From positions 31,523 through 95,522 of the IMG/VR virus record IMGVR_UViG_3300030372_004069: DNA of 64,000 nucleotides. The stretch is one strand, 5' to 3'. The DNA comes from a virus (Duplodnaviria > Caudoviricetes). The position numbers were made by a program, and so were the translations under genes. Positions 39 through 7,381 of the stretch are shown here, one piece after another. Position 1 is the first letter of the stretch. Every line of letters starts with the position of its first letter. The notes below the pieces were generated by a model, which was given only the letters and a program-made list of their open reading frames with translations, made no database searches and was not told the origin of the DNA.

Positions 39-67
39 TTGACTATATACTATACATGTGTTAGTAT
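39..67 (+). promoter_or_regulatory. sigma70-type promoter
   Basis: TTGACT(39-44)-N17-TAGTAT(62-67) with extended TG; start near 74 fits the first aptamer. Confidence 0.6.
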
Positions 68-74
68 TAACACA

Positions 75-124
75 ATCGTTCAACCTGATACATTTCAGGT
101 CGCAAGTAAGCCGACTCGGAACGG
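75..124 (+). ncRNA. Glutamine riboswitch-like aptamer 1 (glnA/Downstream-peptide class)
   Basis: CGTTC...GAACG P1, ACCTGA/TCAGGT P2, CGCAAGTAAGCCGAC core; upstream of a YRGV (DUF4278) peptide. Confidence 0.7.
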
Positions 125-125
125 A

Positions 126-300
126 ATCGTTCATCCTCATGGAATTTCTTCTCGCTAGTTTATTAACATGTGAAAGTGCTCAGAGTATTATAGACAACAT
201 TAAACTCTCAACTCCTAACAGAGAAGAGTTAGTTGAAGTAATACAAGAGAACAGTGAGAAGGGATGCTTTAAGGACGCAAAAGCCGACTGAAGGAACGGG
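126..300 (+). ncRNA. Glutamine riboswitch-like aptamer 2 with an ORF in its P2 loop
   Basis: ATCGTTCATCCT (126-137) ... AGGACGCAAAAGCCGACTGAAGGAACGGG (272-300). Confidence 0.6.
139..291 (+). CDS. small hypothetical protein (50 aa) nested in the aptamer
   Basis: MEFLLASLLTCESAQ...GCFKDAKAD; ATG 139 is in frame with track ORF 58..291. Confidence 0.55.
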   Translation: MEFLLASLLTCESAQSIIDNIKLSTPNREELVEVIQENSEKGCFKDAKAD

Positions 301-332
301 GTCTAATCCACCTCACTTTCAGGAGAAAGCCA

Positions 333-488
333 ATGGCACAAGTCACTTATCGTGGTGTCCAGTATGACACTAACGAGCGTAAGCAAGCAAAACCAAATAA
401 GTCTGAATTGACTTACCGTGGTGTTAAGCACAGCAAAGCAGATGAAGTTCTACCTTCATACCTAGACGCTGGACTTACTGCTGTTTAG
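333..488 (+). CDS. DUF4278-family peptide (51 aa)
   Basis: Not in ORF track. MAQVTYRGVQYDTNERKQAKPNKSELTYRGVKHS..., two TYRGV motifs, AGGAG RBS. Confidence 0.85.
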   Translation: MAQVTYRGVQYDTNERKQAKPNKSELTYRGVKHSKADEVLPSYLDAGLTAV

Positions 489-508
489 TTCCACAGAACT
501 AAATTAAT

Positions 509-549
509 AAAGAGCACCTCTTGACAGGTGCTCTTTTTTTGTGTAAAAT
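509..549 (+). terminator. intrinsic terminator overlapping a sigma70 promoter
   Basis: AGAGCACC-tcttgaca-GGTGCTCT-T tract; TTGACA(521)-N17-TAAAAT(544). Confidence 0.8.
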
Positions 550-745: not shown

Positions 746-903
746 GATCTAAGGAATTATTAAAAAATCTTAGACAAGCACTACAACAAGATTATCTGTA
801 TGATAGTAAGGAGCTTGAATTTATGAGAGAACAACTTTCTGTTTTAGAGCAAGAAGTAGAAAAACGTAAAAAAACAAAACCCCAAGGATTTGGTAAAAAA
901 TGA
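742..903 (+). CDS. hypothetical protein (53 aa)
   Basis: Not in track. MRSKELLKNLRQALQQDYLY...KPQGFGKK, ATGA overlaps at both ends. Confidence 0.7.
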   Translation: MRSKELLKNLRQALQQDYLYDSKELEFMREQLSVLEQEVEKRKKTKPQGFGKK

Positions 904-1532
904 CTATAAAACTTGTAAGCATTACTCCTGACGCAGAGCAGACAATGGCATATATTGCCAGAGTGTCAAATCCGTCCAATCAGGACAATGATAAGTATTC
1001 TGGACTTTTGAAGTATTGCATCAAACATAACCATTGGAGTGTTTTTGAGCAATCTTCCATGACTTTGGAAATAGAGACTACTCGTGCTATTGCGGCACAG
1101 ATATTAAGACATAGAAGTTTCACATTTCAGGAGTTTTCTCAAAGATATGCTGCTAGTACGACATTGGGTGATATTGATCTTCCAGAACTTCGTAAGCAAG
1201 ATTTAAAGAATCGTCAGAATTCGACTGATGACTTAGATCCTAAAATGGTGGAAAAATTTGAGAAACAGATGATTACACTTTTTAGTTCATCTAAGGCATT
1301 ATATGAACAAATGCTCAGTCAGGGTGTGGCTAAAGAATGTGCTAGAATGGTATTACCACTCTGCACTCCTACCAGAATCTATATGACTGGTTCATGTCGT
1401 TCTTGGATACATTATATTAATTTAAGATCTGCACACGGAACTCAAAAAGAGCATATGGAGATCGCAGAGGCATGTAGGAAAGTGTTTATTGAACAATTCC
1501 CTTCTGTTTCTGAGGCTTTGGAATGGTTATAA
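900..1532 (+). CDS. thyX: FAD-dependent thymidylate synthase
   Basis: HWSVFE, RHRSFTFQEFSQRYA ThyX motif, ARMVLP. Confidence 0.97.
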   Translation: MTIKLVSITPDAEQTMAYIARVSNPSNQDNDKYSGLLKYCIKHNHWSVFEQSSMTLEIETTRAIAAQILRHRSFTFQEFSQRYAASTTLGDIDLPELRKQDLKNRQNSTDDLDPKMVEKFEKQMITLFSSSKALYEQMLSQGVAKECARMVLPLCTPTRIYMTGSCRSWIHYINLRSAHGTQKEHMEIAEACRKVFIEQFPSVSEALEWL

Positions 1533-2295: not shown

Positions 2296-3054
2296 ATGGC
2301 AAGACGTAAAAGAGGAAGTGTTGATCAACCTATTGGAGTTGGTTTAACTACCAAACAAATGAAAAGGAAGAAACCTTTAAATGCTGATTATTTGGTTGAT
2401 ATTGAACCTCTCAATGATAATCAAAAAAGATTATTTGATTCTTATAAAAAAGGTAAGAATATAATTGCTTATGGCTGTGCTGGAACTGGTAAAACCTTTA
2501 TAAGTTTATATAATGTACTAAAAGATGTTTTAGCAGATAATAATCTTTATGAAAAAATTTACTTAGTTCGTTCTTTAGTATCTACTAGAGAAATTGGTTT
2601 CTTACCTGGTGATCATGAGGATAAGGCAGATATTTACCAGATTCCTTATAAGAATATGGTGAAGTATATGTTTCAGATGCCATCTGATGCCGACTTTGAG
2701 ATGCTTTATGGGAATCTTAAATCTCAGGATACTATTAAGTTCTGGAGTACTTCTTTTATTCGTGGAATTACTTTAGACAATGCTGTTGTTATTGTAGATG
2801 AGTTTCAAAACTTAAACTTCCATGAATTAGATTCTATTATTACCAGAGTTGGGGAGAATACTAGAATTATTTTTTGTGGAGATGCAACTCAGTCAGATTT
2901 AGTTAAAACTAATGATCGTAATGGTATTGTTGATTTTATGAGCATCTTGCGTAAAATGAATTCCTTTGATATAATAGAATTTGGTATTGATGATATTGTT
3001 CGTTCAGGACTTGTTAAAGAATACCTTCTAGCAAAAAATGAATTAGGTATGTAA
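2296..3054 (+). CDS. phoH: PhoH-like ATPase
   Basis: GCAGTGKT, IGFLPG, RGITLD, DEFQN, GDATQSD, DIVRS. Confidence 0.97.
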   Translation: MARRKRGSVDQPIGVGLTTKQMKRKKPLNADYLVDIEPLNDNQKRLFDSYKKGKNIIAYGCAGTGKTFISLYNVLKDVLADNNLYEKIYLVRSLVSTREIGFLPGDHEDKADIYQIPYKNMVKYMFQMPSDADFEMLYGNLKSQDTIKFWSTSFIRGITLDNAVVIVDEFQNLNFHELDSIITRVGENTRIIFCGDATQSDLVKTNDRNGIVDFMSILRKMNSFDIIEFGIDDIVRSGLVKEYLLAKNELGM

Positions 3055-5543: not shown

Positions 5544-5742
5544 GTTGGGTTGACGAACTCAACGGGGAGTGACTGAATAAACTTTCTGGCATATAGCTGG
5601 TTAAGGTGACGAGACACAGGTGGTGCTGCTACTCGCAAGAGTAGAATCGACTTACCAGTCGGGTCTCAGGCAAGGACGTAAAATTTACTACTGTAGTAAT
5701 GCCCGTTCTTTGTTGGTAATACAGAAACCCAACCTCCCACCC
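5544..5742 (+). ncRNA. structured RNA, probably the manA-type cyanophage motif
   Basis: GC-rich intergenic stretch with many helices: GGGAG/CTCCC, GAGAC/GTCTC, CTACTC-GCAA-GAGTAG, CGACT-TACC-AGTCG, AAGGACG/CGTTCTT, GTTGG/CCAAC. Family name is from recall. Confidence 0.65.
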
Positions 5743-5777
5743 CAAATCCAATTAATCCTATTAATCCGAGGTATCCA

Positions 5778-6683
5778 ATGTCGTTTGCTAATCTTAAAAA
5801 GCAATCAAAACTAGGCTCTCTTACACAAAAACTTGTGAAGGAAGTTGAAAAAATGAATACTAACGGTTCATCAGCTGATGACCGTCTTTGGAAGTTAGAC
5901 GTAGATAAATCAGGCAATGGTTATGCCGTTATCCGTTTTCTTCCTGCTCCTAACGGTGAAGATCTACCGTTTGTAAAATTATATTCCCATGCATTTAAAG
6001 GTGCTGGTGGATGGTATATTGAAAATTCTTTGACCACTCTTGGTCAGAAGGATCCTGTTTCTGAGTTTAATACTACACTTTGGAACAATGGTACTGATTC
6101 TGGTAAAGATGCTGCTCGTAGGCAGAAGCGTAAACTCACATATATCAGTAACATCTATGTTGTGAAGGATCCTGCTAATCCTGAGAACGAAGGTCAAGTA
6201 TTCTTATACAAGTATGGTAAGAAAATCTTTGATAAAATCACTGCAGCAATGCAACCTGAGTTTGAAGATGAGGAAGCAATTGATCCATTTGATTTCTGGC
6301 AAGGTGCTAACTTCAAGTTGAAGGCAAAGAACGTTGCTGGTTATCGTAACTACGATTCTTCTGAGTTTACTGCTGTTTCTCCAGTATTGGATGATGATGA
6401 TGCATTAGAAGCATTATGGAAGAAAGAAAACTCTCTTCAAGAGTTTGTCGGTGCTGATCAGTTCAAGTCTTATGACGAATTGAAAAAGCGTCTTGGTTAT
6501 GTTCTTGGTAGTAATGCTACAGTTACTCAAGATCCTGAAGTAGAAGATGAAGATCGTGCTCGTGGGCCTTCCCCAGTAGCATCTGCTCCATCGGAACCAG
6601 AACCTGCTATTGCAGTTGGTGCTGGCACGGGTGATGAAGATGAAGATACACTATCATATTTTGCGAAACTCGCCGCAGATTAA
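5778..6683 (+). CDS. gp32: single-stranded DNA-binding protein gp32
   Basis: GNGYAVIRFLPA, WYIENSLTT, YGKKIFDK, GANFKLK, acidic C-tail. Confidence 0.97.
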   Translation: MSFANLKKQSKLGSLTQKLVKEVEKMNTNGSSADDRLWKLDVDKSGNGYAVIRFLPAPNGEDLPFVKLYSHAFKGAGGWYIENSLTTLGQKDPVSEFNTTLWNNGTDSGKDAARRQKRKLTYISNIYVVKDPANPENEGQVFLYKYGKKIFDKITAAMQPEFEDEEAIDPFDFWQGANFKLKAKNVAGYRNYDSSEFTAVSPVLDDDDALEALWKKENSLQEFVGADQFKSYDELKKRLGYVLGSNATVTQDPEVEDEDRARGPSPVASAPSEPEPAIAVGAGTGDEDEDTLSYFAKLAAD

Positions 6684-6689
6684 CACAAG

Positions 6690-6717
6690 AAAGGGGGTCT
6701 TAATGACCCCTTTTTTT
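6690..6717. terminator. bidirectional intrinsic terminator
   Basis: AAAGGGGGTC-ttaat-GACCCCTTTTTTT between convergent genes. Confidence 0.85.
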
Positions 6718-7381
6718 ATGGCATTGTAACTCTTGTATTTTCTGTTTTCGCTAATCTATCGGTGATTCTCTGAGAGGATCTTTGATATATCATAATATCT
6801 CTCATATCATTTAAGAATTGTTGTAAATATCTTCTCCTTAAAAGATAGATAGATCTTTTTTTATCATTTTCTATTGTTTGATATTCCCAATTACTAATAC
6901 CTAGAATGATTGAGTCGGAACCAGGTGTAATATAAGTATTTCCTTCATAATATGATATTGAAAAATCTTTATCTACATGTTTACCTTTAGGTAAAATTAA
7001 TTTACCCTCAGAATCTCTAATTTCCTTAGTTTCATAATGGTGTATATCTCCTAAAGCATCTTCATTCTTGTAAATATTAAGTACGTAATAATATAAATCT
7101 CTATTTGATAAAGGCCATTCATTTCTTACATTAATAATACCAGCAGTTATAAGGACAACCCAATCTAATTCTGAATTACCATAAAATTCCTCTGCCACAG
7201 TATCAGGTCTTGCACCTTCCATTATTTCATACTTATCAAATACTGTAAAAACATTTTGTAAGTCATCACGGAGTTTATTTCTTCTGAATAAATTCTTAAC
7301 CGTCAGATAACTCTGAGAAGAGAGACTATCCGATAAGAAGTTTTGATATTCTAGGTTTGGTAATTCTCTAAAGTATCCCAT
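6716..7381 (-). CDS. gp53: baseplate wedge subunit gp53
   Basis: YFRELP, GARPDTVAEEFYG..LDWVVL..N...EWPL, IHHYET. Confidence 0.9.
   Translation of the reverse strand: MGYFRELPNLEYQNFLSDSLSSQSYLTVKNLFRRNKLRDDLQNVFTVFDKYEIMEGARPDTVAEEFYGNSELDWVVLITAGIINVRNEWPLSNRDLYYYVLNIYKNEDALGDIHHYETKEIRDSEGKLILPKGKHVDKDFSISYYEGNTYITPGSDSIILGISNWEYQTIENDKKRSIYLLRRRYLQQFLNDMRDIMIYQRSSQRITDRLAKTENTRVTMP

What the first reader, a model, noticed from the sequence alone, without database searches (positions are those of the whole stretch)
126..300. A complete 50-codon ORF nested inside a riboswitch aptamer
Seen: the second aptamer's 5' half (ATCGTTCATCCT, 126-137) is followed 2 nt later by an ATG (139). Its 3' half (AGGACGCAAAAGCCGACTGAAGGAACGGG, 272-300) encodes the last codons and the TGA. 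In aptamer 1 the same P2 loop is only 6 nt. Inference: either translation of this uORF and aptamer folding exclude each other (a ribosome-coupled switch), or ligand binding clamps the gene's start and stop together. Both would be unusual riboswitch architectures.
Basis: partly seen in the sequence, partly recalled or inferred. Interest (0 to 1): 0.75.

Follow-up and report, generated by a model that had tools for sequence, protein, structure and literature searches.

The report
Gene nested inside phage glutamine riboswitch
In this marine cyanophage a real, conserved 50-codon gene sits inside one hairpin of a glutamine-sensing RNA switch built from two interlocked sensor cores, so folding of the sensor and translation of that gene should compete on one RNA; I found no paper that describes this layout.

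Summary
Window 139-291 is an ATG-to-TGA ORF of 50 codons. It starts one base after a riboswitch hairpin strand, and its last six codons and stop lie in conserved riboswitch sequence.

The ORF is a real gene: phrog_504, dN/dS 0.33, two invariant Cys. In 88 of 92 unique inserts of 20 different lengths the frame is kept. Free-standing homologues exist without any riboswitch.

The hairpin closes around the gene. Its pairs covary across 91 unique sequences. Relatives such as L134 carry the same two halves joined by a UUCG loop, and that form scores as a glutamine riboswitch in Rfam.

The two "tandem aptamers" share a helix (109-116 with 282-289) that covaries between the units. The best fold is therefore an outer glutamine aptamer holding an inner, circularly permuted core in its P3 loop. 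The gene sits in the inner core's hairpin.

The stop codon lies in a switching segment (288-294). This segment can instead pair with 316-322 at the ribosome-binding site of the downstream DUF4278 (IF17-like) gene.

Glutamine binding and the translation-versus-folding competition are inferred, not shown.

This scan reported the same layout earlier on other DNA (at least 66 genomes). I found no published description.

The parts
39..67 (+). Sigma-70-like promoter (TTGACT, 17 nt, TAGTAT with a TG before it). It predicts a transcript start near 74-75.
   Evidence: The same motif stands before the P-SSM2 and AG-345-L05 leaders. Consensus match only.
77..81 (+). Outer P1, 5' strand (CGUUC), proposed to pair with 294-298.
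   Evidence: Invariant in all loci, so it cannot covary. The choice of partner rests on the geometry imposed by P3 and on the nested Rfam alignments of L030 and L102.
83..100 (+). Outer P2 hairpin (83-88 with 95-100, loop 89-94).
   Evidence: All four tested pairs show changes on both sides in A3.
101..108 (+). Outer junction CGCAAGUA (family consensus CGGAAGUA).
   Evidence: Rfam alignment. Invariant in A3.
109..116 (+). Shared P3, 5' strand (AGCCGACU), pairs with 282-289. Six standard pairs and two C.A/A.C positions.
   Evidence: Covariation between the units: the fifth pair is G-C in 65 loci and A-U in 4. The eighth pair is U-A in 38, A-U in 16 and G-C in 1. No mixed cases.
119..132 (+). 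Inner P1 as a local hairpin (GAACG, loop GAAU, CGUUC).
   Evidence: Sequence. It forms in the unconstrained fold. It is invariant, so there is no covariation test.
134..138 (+). Inner P2', 5' strand (UCCUC), pairs with 271-275. Here C138.A271 is a mismatch; most of the window's clade has C-G.
   Evidence: first pair U-A 87 and C-G 3. Fourth pair C-G 52, U-A 28, U.G 10, no C.A. Fifth pair A-U 60, C-G 9, U-A 6, U.G 5, and 11 mismatches.
139..291 (+). Nested gene of 50 codons plus TGA. The product is a small two-helix protein with invariant Cys11 and Cys43.
   Evidence: phrog_504, E 6.7e-9; dN/dS 0.33; 345 clusters.
271..275 (+). Inner P2', 3' strand (AAGGA). It also encodes codons 45-46.
276..281 (+). 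Inner junction CGCAAA, coding for part of D-A-K.
   Evidence: Synonymous divergence is 0.13 in the ORF tail against 0.39 in its interior.
282..289 (+). Shared P3, 3' strand (AGCCGACU). U289 is the first base of the stop codon.
290..298 (+). Outer junction GAAG and outer P1 3' strand GAACG. Together they read GAAGGAACG, the family consensus.
316..329 (+). Expression platform. CUUUCAG (316-322) can pair with CUGAAGG (288-294). The Shine-Dalgarno sequence AGGAG lies at 321-325.
   Evidence: Unconstrained minimum-energy fold. The partner bases stay compatible in all loci scored.
333..488 (+). Downstream gene of 51 aa, DUF4278 (IF17-like small protein).
   Evidence: Pfam PF14105, E 8.1e-8, 33 bits against a cut-off of 25.3. 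Also phrog_5049, E 5e-17.
509..543 (+). Intrinsic terminator (11-bp stem and a T run) that ends the unit.
   Evidence: RNA-library contigs tile 126-518 and then stop (weak hint only).

Best explanation
Window 74-543 is one short phage transcript. Its leader is a glutamine-riboswitch variant made of two interlocked three-way junctions. The outer core has P1 77-81:294-298, P2 83-100 and P3 109-116:282-289. An inner, circularly permuted core sits at the far end of the same P3, with P1' 119-123:128-132 and P2' 134-138:271-275. P2' closes around a real 50-codon gene (139-291). That gene's ribosome-loading region is the inner core itself. Its last six codons and stop codon are the P2' 3' strand, the inner junction, the P3 3' strand and the start of the outer junction. 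Inferred mechanism: when glutamine holds the fold, the initiation region of the nested gene is buried. Segment 288-294 is then kept in the aptamer, so the Shine-Dalgarno sequence of the DUF4278 gene (321-325) is free, as in the gifB switch. Without glutamine, 288-294 pairs with 316-322 and masks that site. The nested gene can then be translated, and its ribosomes unwind P2', P3 and outer P1. Shown here: the gene, the helices and the alternative pairing. Inferred: ligand binding, the direction of control and the coupling.
For: Gene: phrog_504 match. There are 91 unique products with invariant C11 and C43. dN/dS is 0.33. Codon-position entropy is 1.35/0.93/1.56, and 88 of 92 inserts of 20 lengths keep the frame. 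A profile search finds 345 clusters. Free-standing homologues have their own SD and no aptamer.
Hairpin around the gene: compensatory pairs. In L134 the natural allele has a UUCG loop in place of the gene, and that form scores 39.4 bits as RF01739. Relatives with a compact hairpin appear in RNA libraries as 135-148-nt skips between 124-137 and 268-274.
Interlocking: P3 covaries between the units. In A3 and A4, 0 of 500 shuffles reach the observed paired fraction (93-97%) or covariation score, and slid controls fall to 31-58%. Rfam itself aligns L030 and L102 in the nested way at 41.0 and 40.2 bits.
RNA-level constraint on the ORF tail: pS 0.13 against 0.39.
Platform: helix 288-294:316-322 appears in the minimum-energy fold. 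When the stop codon is UAA the partner base is U in 37 of 37 loci. When it is UGA the partner is C in 36 and U in 37. No A.C case occurs.
Context: the downstream gene is DUF4278, the family that glutamine riboswitches control in cyanobacteria (PMC6212724).
Against: No binding or expression data exist. P1 strands are invariant, so nested and tandem P1 pairing cannot be separated by covariation; the nested choice rests on geometry and on Infernal alignments of compact relatives. In the window, P3 has two non-standard positions and P2' has a C.A mismatch. The enforced nested fold is 13 kcal/mol above the unconstrained minimum (-62.0 against -75.3), although nearest-neighbour energies ignore tertiary contacts and ligand. 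There is no Shine-Dalgarno sequence at -5 to -10 of ATG139, so the nested gene may be poorly translated. Computed accessibility of the two start regions differs little between the free and the nested state. The covariation counts are of related sequences, not of independent events.
Confidence: 0.6

Rival explanations
1. This is a plain tandem of two independent glutamine aptamers. Unit 1 is 75-127. Unit 2 has P1 128-132:294-298 and its hairpin is split by the ORF. Each unit has its own tiny local P3 (AG-CCGA-CU).
For: Unit 1 alone scores 34.2 bits. Unit 2 alone scores 34-39 bits in compact relatives L134, L135, L047 and L071. Published work describes glnA RNAs as sometimes tandem (PMC2864571).
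Against: The local P3 would have only 2 bp here. It is absent in the large class with AGUCG and CGACU, where the only partner lies in the other unit. Compensatory changes link the two units. With P3 formed between units, a tandem P1 pairing makes a pseudoknot in which 2 nt (117-118) would have to span an 8-bp helix (inference from geometry).
Confidence: 0.15
2. The gene is only a passenger. A small phage gene landed in a tolerant hairpin loop, or the sensor has decayed. Gene and riboswitch then work independently, with no regulatory coupling.
For: Hairpin loops of this RNA vary widely in length. Free-standing homologues exist. No long-range helix co-evolves between the two ends of the coding part: native duplex energy is -11.9, against -11.1 for non-native and -11.0 for shuffled partners.
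Against: Start and stop positions relative to the core are fixed in about 90% of 97 loci. The embedded genes have given up their own SD for core sequence. The stop codon sits in the switching segment and varies compatibly with the platform. Both halves stay conserved and covarying in gene-bearing loci. A homologous gene occupies the equivalent hairpin of the outer core in 27 loci.
Confidence: 0.2
3. The insert is not coding. It is a structured RNA extension of the hairpin, and the open frame is incidental.
For: In the window alone, 144-156 can pair with 253-265 in the minimum-energy fold.
Against: That pairing is not conserved across loci. The coding signatures listed above apply. The product has a PHROG family and a confident fold (pLDDT 79.7). 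Homologues with ordinary gene context exist.
Confidence: 0.03

Closest known systems
Glutamine-I riboswitch (glnA RNA, Rfam RF01739), for example the Synechocystis gifB (IF17) leader (Klahn et al. 2018, PMC6212724)
   Same: It has the same core motifs (CGUUCA, CGNAAGUA, GAAGGAACG) and a three-way junction. It sits in the leader of a DUF4278 gene. An SD-masking helix competes with the aptamer's 3' part.
   Different: Here two cores share one P3 and one is circularly permuted inside the other. A hairpin holds a whole gene. The window's copy falls below the Rfam threshold or is missed altogether.
Glutamine-II riboswitch (Downstream-peptide motif, RF01704) of marine picocyanobacteria
   Same: The CGCA junction variant matches, as do the host group and the short DUF4278-type gene downstream. 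Unit 1 scores 29.3 bits.
   Different: The score is below threshold (33 bits). The defining 3' pseudoknot hairpin is not evident here. That family has no nested gene.
Tandem, mutually docking aptamers such as the glycine riboswitch
   Same: Two sensor domains for one ligand lie on one leader and contact each other.
   Different: Those domains lie side by side, each with its own helices. Here one lies inside the other, they share a helix, and a gene sits within.
Group I introns with homing-endonuclease ORFs in peripheral loops
   Same: A folded functional RNA closes a helix around a protein gene placed in a loop, and the ORF may run into core sequence.
   Different: That RNA is a ribozyme, not a ligand sensor. 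Here there is no splicing and no mobility function, and the product is a 50-aa protein of unknown role.
Long-distance RNA pairing in RNA phage MS2, where coat-gene translation opens the replicase start (from my own knowledge)
   Same: Ribosomes translating an upstream frame melt a structure that controls the next start site.
   Different: MS2 involves no metabolite sensor, and its upstream frame is not enclosed by the regulatory fold.

Membership tests
Glutamine-I riboswitch (RF01739) | Conserved core sequence: CGUUCA, CG(G/C)AAGUA, GAAGGAACG | tested here: met
   All three motifs are present at 77-82, 101-108 and 290-298. A second set lies at 128-133, 276-281 and 118-123.
Glutamine-I riboswitch (RF01739) | Covariance-model score at or above the gathering score (35 bits) | tested here: inconclusive
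   In the window, unit 1 scores 34.2 bits and nothing spans the gene. Compact relatives with the same halves score 41.0, 40.2, 39.4, 37.1 and 35.3 bits. My own model R1 cannot bridge the 135-nt insert.
Glutamine-I riboswitch (RF01739) | Three-way junction P1/P2/P3 supported by covariation | tested here: met
   P2, P2' and P3 show compensatory changes. No shuffle of 500 reaches the observed scores. P1 is invariant and therefore uninformative.
Glutamine-I riboswitch (RF01739) | Selective binding of L-glutamine | not testable with these tools
   This needs in-line probing, ITC or a structure.
Glutamine-I riboswitch (RF01739) | Leader of a nitrogen-related gene, typically DUF4278/IF17, with an SD-masking alternative helix | tested here: met
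   DUF4278 gene at 333-488. Helix 288-294:316-322.
Glutamine-II riboswitch (RF01704) | Score at or above 33 bits, and a 3' hairpin whose loop GGAACG forms the pseudoknot | tested here: not met
   29.3 bits for 74-130.
phrog_504 small phage protein | Full-length profile match | tested here: met
   E 6.7e-9, residues 2-48 on profile positions 3-52 of 53. The family's function is unknown.
Regulatory leader peptide / uORF (attenuation type) | A short frame whose act of translation matters, not its product. Typically there is no conserved fold and no free-standing homologues. | tested here: not met
   The product is conserved, with invariant Cys and a confident two-helix model. Homologues exist as ordinary genes.

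The most novel reading that the evidence does not exclude
One phage mRNA uses an interlocked double glutamine sensor as a two-way translational switch. With glutamine, the fold buries the start of the nested gene and frees the IF17-like gene. Without glutamine, ribosomes on the nested gene unfold both sensor cores and end on the very segment that masks the next start site. Nitrogen status would thus choose between, or set the ratio of, two small proteins.
Probability: 0.4. Interest if true: 0.9.

Novelty: new variant of a known kind. Interest (0 to 1): 0.8.

Why it matters
Riboswitch aptamers are treated as compact non-coding domains that lie in front of genes. Here a protein gene lies inside the sensor, and two sensor cores share a helix. 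The layout is not a rarity in one phage: about three quarters of 137 cyanophage leaders sampled blind have it (97 with a gene in the inner hairpin, 27 with one in the outer hairpin).

It also explains why covariance-model scans report so few phage riboswitches. A 2017 survey found two glutamine aptamers in cyanophage genomes (PMC5473149).

If the coupling is real, it is a new way to make ligand sensing and translation act on each other. It would also be a handle on how cyanophages read host nitrogen status. The natural gene-less alleles supply ready-made controls for experiments.

Tried and rejected
Extended stem between the two ends of the coding part: native duplex energies (-11.9) are no better than non-native (-11.1) or shuffled (-11.0) partners, so I rejected it as a family feature.

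Custom covariance model of the compact double aptamer (R1): it returns two partial matches (74-171 at 32 bits, 202-301 at 13.5 bits) and cannot span the gene, so it gives no membership verdict.

MAFFT columns for the fourth and fifth P2' pairs are split by a gap, so the formal count undercounts them. I used the register-aware tally instead.

Function of the protein:
- No Pfam family.
- No PDB fold match at E <= 0.001.
- The protein atlas gives only unnamed clusters.
- Profile hits to two giant proteins (one with HEAT repeats by Pfam, the other without a family) look like helical-repeat noise.

Homodimer with zinc: complex prediction gave no answer (score 0.02). This is no evidence either way.

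Metatranscriptome contigs cover 56-518, and one 224-nt contig matches 117-340 exactly. They are contigs in RNA libraries, so they do not prove transcription, transcript ends or strand.

Only one copy of the gene is found in the 95.5-kb virus record, which is 45% complete.

Literature searches found no description of a gene within this aptamer or of interlocked cores. Ames and Breaker 2011 is not held, so I could not check it.

Full report
WHAT IS THERE

The window comes from a 95.5-kb T4-like cyanophage record. Neighbouring features fit that: ThyX, PhoH and a manA RNA.

Positions 39-67 match a sigma-70-type promoter, and 509-543 form an intrinsic terminator. Between them lie a structured leader, a 50-codon ORF (139-291) and a 51-codon DUF4278 gene (333-488; Pfam E 8e-8).

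CGTTCATCCT ends at 137 and the ATG is at 139. AGGACGCAAAAGCCGACTGAAGGAACGGG spans 272-300, and the TGA is at 289-291. Rfam finds only the compact first unit (75-127) at 34.2 bits, just under the gathering score of 35. It finds nothing that spans the ORF.

IS THE ORF A GENE? YES

- It matches phrog_504 (E 6.7e-9). One P-SSM2 record annotates its homologue as a predicted protein.
- I fetched cyanophage loci by the junction motif between the two units, a criterion blind to ORFs. Of 137 loci, 97 carry an ATG ORF of 47-67 codons in the second hairpin, and 32 have a compact hairpin there.
- Among 92 unique inserts with 20 different lengths, 88 keep the same length modulo three.
- In 82 aligned products, Cys11 and Cys43 are invariant.
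- Codon-position entropy is 1.35/0.93/1.56. In the window's own clade dN/dS is 0.33.
- A profile search of 1.8 billion representatives finds 345 clusters, almost all 50-60 aa long.
- Two of the more distant members lie in ordinary operons. They have a GGGAGG ribosome-binding site, an ATGA overlap with the upstream gene, and no aptamer sequence. The protein family therefore exists independently of the RNA.
- AlphaFold gives a two-helix hairpin at pLDDT 79.7. I found no structural or family lead to function.

DOES THE HAIRPIN CLOSE AROUND THE GENE? YES

The strand after CGTTCA and the strand before CGCA covary over 91 unique sequences.

| Pair | Counts |
|---|---|
| First | U-A 87, C-G 3 |
| Fourth | C-G 52, U-A 28, U.G 10, C.A 0 |
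| Fifth | A-U 60, C-G 9, U-A 6, U.G 5, mismatches 11 |

The 3' strand is coding (Trp-Asp, Glu-Asp or Lys-Asp) and the 5' strand is not. Protein constraint therefore cannot explain the match.

Natural alleles without the gene exist. L134 has the window clade's two halves joined by UUCG, and that compact form scores 39.4 bits as RF01739. Such alleles also appear in marine RNA libraries as contigs that skip 135-148 nt between 124-137 and 268-274.

In the ORF's last six codons, synonymous divergence falls to 0.13 from 0.39 in the interior. That is the mark of a second, RNA-level constraint.

The coding interior is not a conserved extended stem.

THE TWO UNITS ARE INTERLOCKED

The segment after CGCAAGUA in unit 1 pairs antiparallel with the segment before GAAGGAACG in unit 2. 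In the window this is 109-116 with 282-289: six standard pairs and two C.A positions.

Counts across loci:

| Unit 1 / unit 2 | Loci |
|---|---|
| AGUCG / CGACU | 65 |
| AGUCA / UGACU | 4 |
| Eighth pair U-A | 38 |
| Eighth pair A-U | 16 |
| Eighth pair G-C | 1 |

No locus mixes these states. Rarer versions (GGACGG/CCGACC and GGACGACG/CGCCGCCC) keep the helix with quite different letters.

The formal counts agree. On 61 gene-bearing leaders, 93.2% of cells are paired, against 89.2% in shuffles and 31-58% when the partner is slid. No shuffle of 500 reaches the covariation score. On 23 compact leaders the paired figure is 97.1%, again with 0 of 500.

For compact relatives of the short class, Infernal itself prefers the nested reading. 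It takes the 5' part of unit 1, P3, the 3' part of unit 2, and places everything between them in the P3 loop, at 41.0 and 40.2 bits.

Given this P3, a knot-free and geometrically sensible fold follows:
- outer P1 77-81:294-298
- outer P2 83-100
- P3 109-116:282-289
- inner P1' 119-123:128-132
- inner P2' 134-138:271-275, around the gene

The inner core has the family's elements in circularly permuted order. P1 strands never vary, so the choice of P1 partner is inference, not a test result.

EXPRESSION PLATFORM

In the unconstrained fold, CUGAAGG (288-294) pairs with CUUUCAG (316-322). That reaches into the Shine-Dalgarno sequence AGGAG at 321-325. Segment 288-294 comprises the end of P3, the outer junction and the first base of outer P1.

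The pairing stays possible in all loci scored. Where the nested gene stops with UAA, the partner base is U in 37 of 37 loci. Where it stops with UGA, the partner is C in 36 and U in 37. No A.C combination occurs.

This is the arrangement described for gifB, where glutamine binding releases the ribosome-binding site (PMC6212724). Here the stop codon of the nested gene lies inside the switching segment.

MOST LIKELY MECHANISM (INFERRED)

With glutamine, the double aptamer folds. The region from -18 to the ATG of the nested gene is then inner P1' and P2', so initiation there is hindered. Segment 288-294 is held in the aptamer, so the DUF4278 gene is translated.

Without glutamine, 288-294 masks the downstream site, and the nested gene can be translated. 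Its ribosomes must unwind P2', P3 and, by their footprint, outer P1. A ribosome terminating at 289-291 sits on the masking strand, which could give some coupled expression of the next gene.

Several points weigh against overconfidence. There is no Shine-Dalgarno sequence before ATG139. The enforced nested fold is 13 kcal/mol above the computed minimum, and computed accessibilities differ little between states. No experiment exists.

RELATED OBSERVATION

In 27 loci the outer P2 hairpin also holds a gene of 61-75 codons (phrog_6471), which stops in the CGCAAGUAAG junction. Its profile is homologous to the inner-hairpin family over the Cys-to-Cys core (hhalign probability 96.4%, E 1.3e-9). Gene-in-hairpin is therefore a repeated, probably duplicated, module.

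NOVELTY

The accessible literature calls these RNAs at most "tandem" and reports very few in phages. I found no mention of an enclosed gene or of a shared helix. The 2011 paper by Ames and Breaker could not be read.

The same layout was reported earlier by this scan on other DNA, in at least 66 genomes. My tests here were run independently on this window and on freshly fetched loci.

VERDICT

This is a new variant of the glutamine riboswitch, and it deserves experiments.

Noticed in passing
window 5546-5743 (+): A full-length manA RNA (RF01745) at 181 bits, a known cyanophage cis-regulatory motif.
   Followed up: no
window 509-549 (+): A strong promoter-like site (TTGACA, 17 nt, TAAAAT; 11 of 12 matches) has its -35 hexamer inside the terminator hairpin of the riboswitch unit. 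It stands just before the next small gene (ATG 572).
   Followed up: no
window 58-291 (+): A GTG-started 77-aa frame runs through the first unit into the nested gene. Database entries of 73-82 aa that match only over their last 50-odd residues are probably this over-extended gene call.
   Followed up: partly
L031, L037, L075, L106, L111, L126, L138 (after the last GGAACGG): Some leaders carry an extra element between the double aptamer and the ribosome-binding site (ACGGAUCC, a GNRA-capped hairpin, GAGAAGGUU). It resembles the 3' half of a canonical glnA aptamer, and its partner is unknown.
   Followed up: no
one search list, for example L062, L127, L105: In many loci the gene behind the same leader is not DUF4278 but a different small gene that starts MNTL... 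The sensor module is therefore combined with different cargo.
   Followed up: no
P0099, P0119, P0151: Some family members read the aptamer's 3' half in another frame (ending ...TQKPTEGTG) and stop later. The RNA sequence is kept while the protein tail changes.
   Followed up: partly
L141 601-771; L142 409-585: Free-standing homologues of the nested gene overlap the upstream gene by ATGA. In L142 the homologue lies next to a 2OG-Fe(II) oxygenase gene.
   Followed up: partly
L128 about 6549-6830: This locus appears to have three units in a row: a gene-bearing first hairpin, then two more CGTTCA...GGAACGG units.
   Followed up: no
window 900-1532 and 2296-3054 (+): ThyX (PF02511, E 1.5e-48) and PhoH (PF02562, E 1.2e-42), typical cyanomyovirus genes, lie downstream of the unit.
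   Followed up: no
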